Source: Escherichia coli
GTDB lineage: Bacteria > Pseudomonadota > Gammaproteobacteria > Enterobacterales > Enterobacteriaceae
Assembly (NCBI RefSeq): GCF_003334355.1
Contig: NZ_QOWP01000014.1
Reading direction: 5' to 3' (one strand)
DNA length: 64,000 bases
Shown here: positions 1 through 970 of the stretch, one piece after another
Position numbering within the stretch: position 1 is the first letter of the stretch
How the letters are laid out: every line of letters begins with the position of its first letter
Translations under genes and position numbers: made by a program
The notes under the pieces: model-generated
What the model was told of the DNA's origin: nothing
Databases searched by the model: none
The model's input: the letters and a program-made list of their open reading frames with translations, nothing else

Positions 1-154
1 TCGAAACGTACTCTCAACAGTTCGCTTAGGCATGGAAGTTTTGCGGCATTCTGGCTACACAATAACAAGGGAAGACTTACTCGTGGCTGCAACCCTACTA
101 GCTCAAAATTTATTCACACATGGTTACGCTTTGGGGAAATTATGAGGGGATCTC

Positions 155-970
155 TCAGCGCTGGGCGAATTCCTGACTTACTTCCTGTCTTCCCTGCTGA
201 ATCCCCTTCTCAATCCCTTTCTCTTCAAACCACTGCGCCAGCGTCATCATAGACTTCCCTCCCGTTTCCCTGTCTCTCAGCACACCATAAAACAAATCCG
301 CTTGTTCAGTATGACCGCGTTGCAGCATATAGTTTTGCATGGCAACTAACTGACTTCCGCTAGTGTACCCTTCGTCAATCAGCGTGACCAGTTGCTCAAG
401 CAATAACATTAAGTCGCGCTGGCGAATATGTTTTTGCAGTAGTTCGAGAATCGCAATCCGCCGATGTTGCATGATTTCGTCATCCGGTGTGATGGTGATA
501 TCCACCAGCGGGAAAGGACTGTTATAGACGCGTCGCGCCAGCTCCGGCGAGTAAAACATATCAAACCAGCACATTGATAGCGGATAAGGTGTGGCCTCGC
601 CCTGATAAAACAGTATCGGCACCACCAGCGGCAGCTTATCGTGGTCAGCCTCCAGATGCCGGTGCATGGCGGCTATAGAATAACGCATCATGCGAAAGGC
701 CATTTTCTTATCCGGCTTGCTTTGGTGTTCAATCACAACATGCAGATAACCGGGATTGCCCTGCATTTGCACGGAATAGAGCACGTCCGTGCTGTGTCCT
801 TTCAGGCTCTCTTCAATGAAACTCCCCGACTCTAAATGAAGCGTGTTGAGGTCACAAAGTTCGCGTAATTCCACTGGCAAATGTATCTCCAGAAAGTCGC
901 GAGCCGTCTCCGCATGCATTAAAAATTGTTTAAATACCGCGTCATGCGGTGTGGTACTCGGTGCATCCAT
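155..970 (-). CDS. rpnC: Rpn-family recombination-promoting nuclease (PD-(D/E)XK, transposase_31-like), YadD/RpnC-like; appears C-terminally short (271 aa)
   Basis: ORF-track 271 aa beginning MDAPSTTPHDAVFKQF, recognised as E. coli YadD/RpnC; position between panD and the window edge fits K-12 synteny. Confidence 0.85.
   Translation of the reverse strand: MDAPSTTPHDAVFKQFLMHAETARDFLEIHLPVELRELCDLNTLHLESGSFIEESLKGHSTDVLYSVQMQGNPGYLHVVIEHQSKPDKKMAFRMMRYSIAAMHRHLEADHDKLPLVVPILFYQGEATPYPLSMCWFDMFYSPELARRVYNSPFPLVDITITPDDEIMQHRRIAILELLQKHIRQRDLMLLLEQLVTLIDEGYTSGSQLVAMQNYMLQRGHTEQADLFYGVLRDRETGGKSMMTLAQWFEEKGIEKGIQQGRQEVSQEFAQR

What the first reader, a model, noticed from the sequence alone, without database searches (positions are those of the whole stretch)
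1..970. Rpn-family gene at the window edge looks C-terminally short, with stops in all frames downstream
The rpnC-like ORF (155-970) encodes 271 aa, whereas I recall E. coli Rpn paralogs, including K-12 YadD/RpnC, as roughly 290-300 aa with a conserved C-terminal helical segment. Here the frame ends ...QEVSQEFAQR and the next 154 bp contain stops in all three minus-strand frames. Every other gene in the window matches K-12 lengths and spacing, so this may be a strain-specific truncation or replacement of the Rpn C-terminus, or a rearrangement breakpoint near the window start. Rpn proteins are recombination-promoting nucleases, so a rearrangement at this locus is plausible.
Basis: partly seen in the sequence, partly recalled or inferred. 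Interest (0 to 1): 0.3.

Follow-up and report, generated by a model that had tools for sequence, protein, structure and literature searches.

The report
IS10 insertion truncating the rpnC gene
The short Rpn gene at the window edge is real, but it is simply E. coli rpnC cut 29 codons early by a common jumping gene (IS10). The window starts inside that element because the draft genome assembly broke there.

Summary
ORF 155-970 (-) encodes 271 aa, against 300 aa for RpnC in K-12 and in the nearest complete genome, PSS-12.

The cause is an insertion sequence. Window 1-158 is 100% identical to the last 158 bp of IS10/ISVsa5 (IS4 family, 1,329 bp), which occurs in about 1,000 complete E. coli genomes. 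Homology to rpnC stops exactly at base 159. The IS terminus 5'-CTGAGAGA completes codon 271 (CGC, still Arg) and supplies the TGA stop.

The adjacent 9-mer CGCTGGGCG fits the IS10 target consensus. It is 8/9 identical to a verified 9-bp IS10 target duplication in rpnB of another strain.

Bases 159-64000 are collinear with K-12 at 99.5% identity, with three single-base gaps. The window is the end of draft contig QOWP01000014.1, so the assembly broke in the repeat. The same junction is in a second NCBI assembly, in none of 5,426 complete genomes, and not in JGI metagenomes.

The nuclease domain (aa 7-207) is intact. The end of helix 1 and helices 2 and 3 of the C-terminal bundle are lost. That bundle is the published intragenic antitoxin RpnC-S.

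The far junction is outside the data, so simple insertion is inferred. This is an ordinary, known kind of event.

The parts
1..158 (+). Terminal 158 bp (inside-end side) of an IS10/ISVsa5 element (IS4 family). The rest of the 1,329-bp element lies beyond the window and contig edge.
   Evidence: It is 100% identical over all 158 bases to copies in many E. coli genomes: 1,028 of 5,426 genomes match, and 884 records match at >=99%. NCBI annotates these as 'IS4-like element ISVsa5 family transposase'. It is identical to positions 1172-1329 of the complete 1,329-bp copy in strain J53, which has a 9-bp target duplication.
2..145 (+). 3' end of the IS10 transposase gene: the last 47 codons, ...RNVLSTVRLGMEVLRHSGYTITREDLLVAATLLAQNLFTHGYALGKL*, with the stop at 143-145. 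It converges on rpnC.
   Evidence: The translation equals the C-terminus of WP_001339197.1 in J53. The full J53 protein hits NCBIfam NF033591, IS4 family transposase, at 404 bits against a cutoff of 152.
136..158 (-). IS10 terminal inverted repeat (inside end), 5'-CTGAGAGATCCCCTCATAATTTC-3' on the minus strand. Its first base completes rpnC codon 271 and bases 2-4 (TGA) stop the frame.
   Evidence: Read directly from the sequence. The IS end in J53 and in ETEC1747 falls at the same base.
159..167 (.). The 9 bp that abut the IS end (CGCTGGGCG; CGCCCAGCG in rpnC sense). This is the presumed copy of the 9-bp target-site duplication. The second copy would lie beyond the window.
   Evidence: It matches the strict IS10 consensus NGCTNAGCN at 5 of 6 specified positions and the relaxed NPuCNNNGPyN at 4 of 4 (consensus from PMC4574204). 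It is 8/9 identical to the verified duplication CGCTGGGCA of an IS10 in rpnB of ETEC1747. Other IS10 copies carry the same 8-9 flanking bases (hits aligned over 107-108 bases).
155..970 (-). Truncated rpnC (yadD) ORF of 271 aa. Bases 159-970 are native rpnC nt 1-812, and 155-158 come from the IS.
   Evidence: Bases 159-1300 are 100% identical to PSS-12 and 99.65% to K-12. TIGR01784, the Rpn family model, scores 264 bits against a cutoff of 52.
350..952 (-). Intact N-terminal PD-(D/E)XK-type nuclease domain (aa 7-207, Pfam PF04754 Transposase_31 / YhgA-like).
   Evidence: Pfam E = 3e-87 over model positions 1-201 of 203. The nearly invariant family residues H9, D10, D62, E81, R93 and K180 are all upstream of the break.
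155..250 (-). Remnant of the intragenic small protein RpnC-S: the probable internal start M241 (ATG 250..248; M242 at 247..245) to R271, 31 of about 60 aa.
   Evidence: The internal start is inferred. ATGATG is preceded by GGAGG at 262..258 with a 7-nt spacer. The KGIE repeats begin about 10 aa after it, as PMC10400941 describes for RpnS proteins (8-20 aa). The AlphaFold2 model has helices at 244-274, 279-286 and 290-299.
971..1243 (.). Unaltered rpnC-panD divergent intergenic region. panD starts at 1244 (+).
   Evidence: It is 100% identical to PSS-12.

Best explanation
A 1,329-bp IS10 element (ISVsa5 isoform, IS4 family) transposed into rpnC at codon 271/272. The target 9-mer is CGCCCAGCG (rpnC nt 804-812), which fits the element's known target preference.

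The IS lies with its transposase gene converging on rpnC, so its inside end abuts rpnC nt 812. The first base of the IS end (C) completes codon 271 as CGC, still Arg. The next three bases (TGA) stop translation. No foreign residues are added, and the last 29 residues are lost.

The short-read draft assembly could not resolve the repeated IS. The contig, and therefore the window, ends 158 bp inside it.

Shown:
- the identity of the IS;
- the base-exact junction;
- the origin of the stop codon;
- the intact nuclease domain;
- recurrence of the junction in a second assembly.

Inferred:
- that the event is a simple insertion, with the rest of rpnC plus panC on the far side and a 9-bp duplication;
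- the functional outcome.

The most likely outcome is that both products of the gene lose the end of helix 1 and helices 2 and 3 of the C-terminal three-helix bundle. These products are full-length RpnC-L and the internally initiated antitoxin RpnC-S. That would make this a loss-of-function or hypomorphic allele of one of five redundant rpn toxin-antitoxin genes, tolerated because chromosomal RpnC-L is weakly expressed or unstable without its C-terminal domain.
For: - IS identity: window 1-158 is 100% identical to IS10/ISVsa5 ends in many genomes. It equals the last 158 bp of a complete 1,329-bp copy with a 9-bp duplication in J53.
- Junction: rpnC homology starts exactly at 159, at 100% to PSS-12 and 99.65% to K-12.
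- Protein: intact RpnC is 300 aa, and the window protein equals residues 1-271.
- Stop codon: the minus strand reads ...GCC CAG CGC TGA GAG ATC, against native ...GCC CAG CGT CTT CTG.
- Target site: the 9-mer fits the IS10 consensus (PMC4574204). It is 8/9 identical to the verified duplication of a complete IS10 in rpnB of ETEC1747.
- Rest of the window: collinear with K-12 with only three 1-bp gaps, and 100.0% identical to PSS-12 over 24.8 kb. PSS-12 has an intact rpnC.
- Source: the window is identical to the end of NCBI draft contig QOWP01000014.1 (GCA_003334355.1).
- Recurrence: the same junction is in GCA_002190165.1, contig LYBG01000533.1.
- Domains: PF04754 covers aa 7-207. The AlphaFold2 model (pLDDT 90.3) places helices at 244-274, 279-286 and 290-299.
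- Published function: the C-terminal domain is an internally translated antitoxin and oligomerisation domain with a three-helix bundle (PMC10400941).
Against: - The far (outside-end) junction is not in the window or the contig. The 9-bp duplication and the continuity to the rpnC 3' end and panC are therefore unverified.
- Look-ups for predicted ORFs spanning that junction found nothing. The lost 91 nt, panC and panB are not elsewhere in the window.
- The target 9-mer has one mismatch to the strict hotspot consensus.
- The functional consequences are entirely inferred. No data here address expression, stability or toxicity of the truncated proteins.
- The RpnC-S start codon is inferred from sequence features, not read from the paper's data.
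Confidence: 0.85

Rival explanations
1. IS10/Tn10-mediated rearrangement rather than a simple insertion. Here the inside end of IS10 was joined to rpnC by an intramolecular or 'inside-out' transposition event, or two IS10 copies later recombined. What lies beyond the IS would then not be the rpnC 3' end and panC but a deletion or inversion endpoint.
For: The far side of the IS is not available. The contig ends in the IS, and the lost rpnC 3' end, panC and panB are not in the 64-kb window. IS10 is multi-copy in many genomes, up to 45 places per genome. That provides substrates for IS-IS recombination. The junction is at an inside end, the end used in inside-out Tn10 events (established knowledge of Tn10/IS10 biology).
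Against: A single IS10 also uses one inside end and one outside end. An inside-end junction is therefore exactly what simple IS10 transposition gives. The complete copies in J53 and ETEC1747 show this, with duplications at both ends. panB and panC are needed for pantothenate synthesis, and the whole other side (63.8 kb) is undisturbed. Absence of the lost piece from the window is expected anyway, because it would lie on the other side of the IS.
Confidence: 0.1
2. Assembly artefact. Here the IS10 fragment was joined to an intact rpnC by a chimeric contig end, and the strain really has a 300-aa RpnC.
For: The feature sits at the very end of a short-read draft contig, where misjoins and collapsed repeats are most common.
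Against: The same junction, base for base, is in a second independent NCBI assembly (LYBG01000533.1, 100% over 1,537 b). The break is exactly at the IS terminus, next to a 9-mer that fits the IS10 target preference and nearly equals a verified duplication elsewhere. A random chimera would not land there.
Confidence: 0.03
3. Selected, functionally meaningful allele. Here the truncation keeps the RpnC-L nuclease but disables the RpnC-S antitoxin, or alters L-S pairing. That would change toxin activity, SOS induction or recombination, or phage defence in this lineage, rather than being a neutral knockout.
For: The nuclease domain and its conserved residues are intact. The cut removes helices 2 and 3 of the domain shown for RpnA/RpnC to mediate antitoxin action and L-S specificity (PMC10400941). 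The allele is found in two assemblies. Another strain carries an IS10 in the paralog rpnB.
Against: The two assemblies may be one clone. The allele is absent from 5,426 complete genomes and from JGI metagenomes, so there is no sign of spread. The rpnB and rpnC insertions are explained by a shared target motif (GCC CAG CG) rather than by selection. RpnC-L loses the same residues as RpnC-S, so it is as likely to be destabilised. There are no expression or phenotype data.
Confidence: 0.1

Closest known systems
IS10 (IS10R of Tn10; ISfinder isoform ISVsa5), IS4 family
   Same: All 158 bp available are 100% identical to annotated copies. They include the transposase C-terminus and the terminal inverted repeat CTGAGAGATCCCC.... 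The flanking 9-mer fits the published target preference.
   Different: Only the last 158 of 1,329 bp are visible. The second end and the 9-bp duplication cannot be checked here.
E. coli K-12 RpnC (YadD, b0132), recombination-promoting nuclease; RpnL/RpnS gene-within-gene toxin-antitoxin (Zhong et al. 2023, PMC10400941; Kingston et al. 2017, PMC5350276)
   Same: Same locus between panD and panC. Residues 1-271 differ from K-12 at one position (E239K). It has the same PF04754 nuclease domain, the same KGIE repeat number and the same internal SD+ATG.
   Different: It lacks residues 272-300, i.e. the end of helix 1 and helices 2 and 3 of the C-terminal bundle. Both RpnC-L and RpnC-S are shortened, and the native stop and 3' end are replaced by IS10.
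IS10 insertion in rpnB of E. coli ETEC1747 (NZ_CP122722.1)
   Same: The same element (0 mismatches to the J53 copy), the same orientation relative to the rpn gene and a near-identical target 9-mer (CGCTGGGCA vs CGCTGGGCG). The gene is split and annotated as a pseudogene.
   Different: It is in a different paralog and at a different position (codon ~224 of rpnB, not 271). Both junctions and the 9-bp duplication are visible there.

Membership tests
IS10 / ISVsa5 (IS4 family insertion sequence) | Nucleotide identity to the reference element, including the terminal inverted repeat | tested here: met
   Window 1-158 is 100% identical to annotated copies and to the last 158 bp of the complete 1,329-bp J53 and ETEC1747 copies.
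IS10 / ISVsa5 (IS4 family insertion sequence) | Encodes an IS4-family DDE transposase | tested here: inconclusive
   Only the last 47 codons are in the window. They are identical to WP_001339197.1, but alone they hit no NCBIfam model. The full-length J53 protein hits NF033591 at 404 bits.
IS10 / ISVsa5 (IS4 family insertion sequence) | 9-bp target-site duplication flanking both ends | not testable with these tools
   The outside-end junction lies beyond the window and contig. Look-ups for ORFs predicted to span it found nothing. Complete copies elsewhere do show 9-bp duplications.
IS10 / ISVsa5 (IS4 family insertion sequence) | Target 9-mer fits NGCTNAGCN / NPuCNNNGPyN | tested here: met
   CGCTGGGCG matches 5/6 of the strict and 4/4 of the relaxed consensus (consensus from PMC4574204). 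It is 8/9 identical to a verified duplication.
Rpn (YhgA-like) recombination-promoting nuclease, RpnC ortholog | PF04754 / TIGR01784 N-terminal PD-(D/E)XK-type domain | tested here: met
   PF04754 E = 3e-87 over aa 7-207. TIGR01784 scores 264 bits against a cutoff of 52. The conserved D62 and E81 are present. A whole-model Foldseek search of the PDB gave no significant match, so there is no independent confirmation of the fold.
Rpn (YhgA-like) recombination-promoting nuclease, RpnC ortholog | Orthologous position (between panD and panC) and near-identity to K-12 b0132 | tested here: met
   The nucleotide sequence is 99.65% identical to K-12. Of residues 1-271, 270 are identical to K-12. The panD side is syntenic. 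The panC side is not visible.
Rpn (YhgA-like) recombination-promoting nuclease, RpnC ortholog | Complete C-terminal variable domain (RpnS three-helix bundle) with an internal translation start | tested here: not met
   The internal SD+ATG is present. The domain is cut after residue 271 of 300, so helices 279-286 and 290-299 are absent. It is a truncated member, effectively a pseudogene-like allele.
Rpn (YhgA-like) recombination-promoting nuclease, RpnC ortholog | Nuclease/toxin activity blocked by the cognate RpnS | not testable with these tools
   This needs the growth and SOS-reporter assays of PMC10400941.

The most novel reading that the evidence does not exclude
The IS10 cut could be a natural separation-of-function allele of a gene-within-gene toxin-antitoxin. 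It leaves the RpnC-L nuclease domain and the dimerising first helix but removes helices 2 and 3 of the RpnC-S antitoxin. The lineage would then carry a de-repressed or re-tuned RpnC nuclease, giving more SOS, more recombination or altered phage defence. It would also show that the last two helices are dispensable for viability but required for antitoxin function.
Probability: 0.08. Interest if true: 0.35.

Novelty: already known. Interest (0 to 1): 0.08.

Why it matters
It matters little beyond annotation hygiene. The 271-aa protein is deposited as an ordinary 'Rpn family recombination-promoting nuclease' (RCQ22074.1, OWD71738.1). It is in fact an IS10-disrupted gene and would be better flagged as a pseudogene.

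The case also shows that a gene that looks short at a contig edge in a draft assembly should first be checked for an IS terminus.

There is one mildly useful angle. The allele cuts the RpnC-S antitoxin domain after helix 1 while sparing the nuclease domain. The strain is therefore a ready-made natural mutant for asking which part of RpnS is needed to restrain RpnL.

Tried and rejected
- PDB sequence search with RpnC, to align the published RpnA-S crystal structure: only chance hits to Trp repressor (E ~0.6-1).
- Foldseek of the full AlphaFold2 model against the PDB: nothing below E = 0.09. The helix boundaries therefore rest on the model alone.
- Supplementary files of PMC10400941, to read the exact RpnC-S start: none are held.
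- Exact-pattern scan of JGI metagenome contigs for the 31-nt junction: 0 matches. I ran no further search on the predicted far junction, because the allele is evidently absent there.
- Look-ups of two ORFs (51 and 44 aa) predicted to span the far junction, IS10 outside end to rpnC 3' end: not on record. This is uninformative, because such small ORFs may simply not be called.
- Logan contig L007 carries 'the same 271-aa protein'. It is only a wild-type contig that happens to end after codon 271, with last base T rather than the IS-derived C. I rejected it as an instance of the allele.
- PADLOC models: no hit for the protein.
- Promoter/terminator scan of 1-1300: no more sites than in shuffled sequence.
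- Whole Tn10 insertion: rejected, because Tn10 would present an IS10 outside end to the chromosome, and here the inside end (transposase C-terminal side) abuts rpnC. This rests on established Tn10 anatomy, not on a test made here.
The junction carries the IS10 signature.

Full report
**Observation**

The minus-strand ORF at 155-970 encodes 271 aa ending ...QEVSQEFAQR. The annotated rpnC genes of K-12 MG1655 (b0132, 146,968-147,870) and of strain PSS-12 are 903 nt, or 300 aa. A direct comparison shows that the window protein equals PSS-12 RpnC residues 1-271. It differs from K-12 only at residue 239 (K vs E). The 154 bases downstream have stops in all three minus-strand frames.

**What the downstream DNA is**

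BLAST of window 1-1300 against PSS-12 and K-12 shows that homology begins abruptly at base 159. It is 100% to PSS-12 and 99.65% to K-12, with nothing matching 1-158.

Searched on its own, 1-158 is 100% identical over its full length to sequences in many E. coli genomes:
- 1,028 of 5,426 complete genomes match;
- there are up to 45 copies per genome, on chromosomes and on plasmids;
- the copies are annotated 'IS4-like element ISVsa5 family transposase'.

In strain J53 the match covers the last 158 bp of a complete 1,329-bp element. That element starts CTGATGAATCCCC..., ends ...GGGGATCTCTCAG and is flanked by a 9-bp direct duplication. From my own knowledge of the sequence, this is IS10, the IS of Tn10. 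The 402-aa protein MCELDILHDSLYQ...HGYALGKL is the IS10 transposase, and it hits the NCBIfam IS4-family model at 404 bits. Window 2-145 (+) encodes its last 47 residues.

**The junction**

On the rpnC sense strand the window reads ...GAA TTC GCC CAG CGC TGA GAG ATC CCC.... The native gene reads ...GAA TTC GCC CAG CGT CTT CTG AGT....

The IS end (5'-CTGAGAGATCC) therefore starts at window base 158. Its C completes codon 271 as CGC, a synonymous Arg, and its next three bases are the TGA stop. No foreign amino acids are appended, and residues 272-300 are lost.

The 9 bp next to the IS (CGCTGGGCG, 159-167) match the strict IS10 target consensus 5'-NGCTNAGCN-3' at five of six specified positions. 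They match the relaxed consensus 5'-NPuCNNNGPyN-3' completely (consensus as quoted in PMC4574204).

There is also an empirical control. In strain ETEC1747 a complete, identical IS10 sits in the paralog rpnB, in the same relative orientation. It has a verified 9-bp duplication, CGCTGGGCA, which is 8/9 identical to the window's flank. Several other IS10 copies share the same 8-9 flanking bases (hits aligned over 107-108 bases at 100%).

**Why the window starts there**

An exact-sequence look-up of the 271-aa protein found it on NCBI draft contig QOWP01000014.1 (GCA_003334355.1, 97,296 bp). The terminal 6,970 bases of that contig are identical to window 1-6970 in reverse orientation. Window base 1 is therefore the contig end. 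The short-read assembly broke inside the repeated IS.

The same junction is present, base for base, on contig LYBG01000533.1 of a second assembly (GCA_002190165.1). That contig ends 20 bases into the IS. The protein is deposited as RCQ22074.1 and OWD71738.1. This argues against a chimeric contig end.

A third 'hit', a Logan contig, is only a wild-type contig that ends after codon 271 with the native T. It does not count as an instance of the allele.

The junction is absent from all 5,426 complete RefSeq E. coli genomes, where no place covers 80% or more of a 201-bp junction probe. It is also absent from JGI metagenome contigs.

**Context**

Window 159-64000 is a single collinear alignment with K-12 147,779->83,937 (rpnC through leuO). 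Identity is 99.5% with three single-base gaps. The first 24.8 kb are 100.0% identical to PSS-12, which has an intact rpnC. The IS is the only structural difference in the window. The missing 91 nt of rpnC, panC and panB are not elsewhere in the window, as expected if they lie on the far side of the IS.

**Consequences for the protein**

Pfam places the YhgA-like/Transposase_31 domain (PF04754) at aa 7-207, with E = 3e-87. The nearly invariant residues in an alignment of 68 homologs (H9, D10, D62, E81, R93, K180...) all lie upstream of the break.

An AlphaFold2 model built on that alignment has mean pLDDT 90.3. It shows a C-terminal unit of three helices at residues 244-274, 279-286 and 290-299.

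Zhong et al. 2023 (PMC10400941) reported the following:
- RpnS is the antitoxin of the toxic full-length nuclease (RpnL).
- RpnA-S is a dimeric three-helix bundle.
- Matching numbers of KGIE repeats in helix 1 are needed for RpnC-S to counteract RpnC-L.

In the window the sequence GGAGG-N7-ATGATG (262..245, minus strand) sits about 10 residues upstream of the KGIE repeats. That fits the paper's description of RpnS starts, so I infer that RpnC-S is M241-I300.

The IS cut leaves 31 of these roughly 60 residues. It removes the last turn of helix 1 and all of helices 2 and 3, in both RpnC-L and RpnC-S. What this does to toxicity or defence is not shown by anything here. The simplest expectation is a hypomorphic or null allele of one of five paralogous systems.

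**What remains unproven**

The outside-end junction is beyond the data. The 9-bp duplication, and the assumption that the rest of rpnC and panC follow the IS, are therefore inferences. I could not recover that junction. ORFs predicted to span it are not on record.

An IS10-mediated deletion or inversion therefore stays possible, at about 10%.

**Verdict**

This is a real, strain-specific truncation of rpnC caused by an IS10 insertion at a consensus-type target, seen at the edge of a draft contig. It is a known kind of event involving known elements, and its interest is low.

Noticed in passing
L009 (NZ_CP122722.1, E. coli ETEC1747) 1042-3270: A complete 1,329-bp IS10/ISVsa5 interrupts the paralog rpnB at codon ~224, in the same relative orientation. 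Its 9-bp duplication, CGCTGGGCA, is 8/9 identical to the window's flank. Both sites encode Ala-Gln-Arg (GCC CAG CG), so the same nucleotide motif in two rpn paralogs acts as an IS10 target.
   Followed up: yes
window 248-262 (minus strand): The only RpnC amino-acid difference from K-12 is K239 here and in PSS-12, against E239 in K-12. It lies in the 7-nt spacer between the GGAGG Shine-Dalgarno and the presumed internal start (M241) of the small protein RpnC-S, so it might affect RpnC-S translation.
   Followed up: partly
window 16825-16828 and 14000-21000: Relative to K-12 there is a paired +1/-1 indel 3 bp apart inside yacH, so the frame is restored. There is also a SNP-dense block of 21-40 differences per 2 kb across yacH-acnB-lpd-aceF, in an otherwise ~99.5% identical window. 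This looks like a recombined segment.
   Followed up: no
window 26053: A T-run in the aroP-pdhR intergenic region is one base shorter than in K-12 (T5 vs T6).
   Followed up: no
window 42624-42713 (-): An Rfam match above gathering score to PssrA ('plasmid-encoded Shigella sRNA A', 105 bits) at the chromosomal ftsA 3' end / ftsZ 5' region. Other routine hits are tp2 (24924-25037, +), STnc40 (36908-36977, -) and two naRNA4/REP copies (36311-36504, -).
   Followed up: no
L007 (Logan SRR31377758_1920), contig end: An unrelated short-read contig with a wild-type rpnC ends one base past the IS10 insertion point. It therefore yields the same 271-aa 'protein' by truncation at the contig edge. This is either coincidence or an assembly-graph branch at the same site in a mixed sample.
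   Followed up: partly
window 18042-18421 and 21363-22228: There are internal ~80% identical tandem repeats within yacH and within aceF (the lipoyl-domain repeats). They appear as off-diagonal hits in the K-12 comparison. These are known features of the two genes.
   Followed up: no
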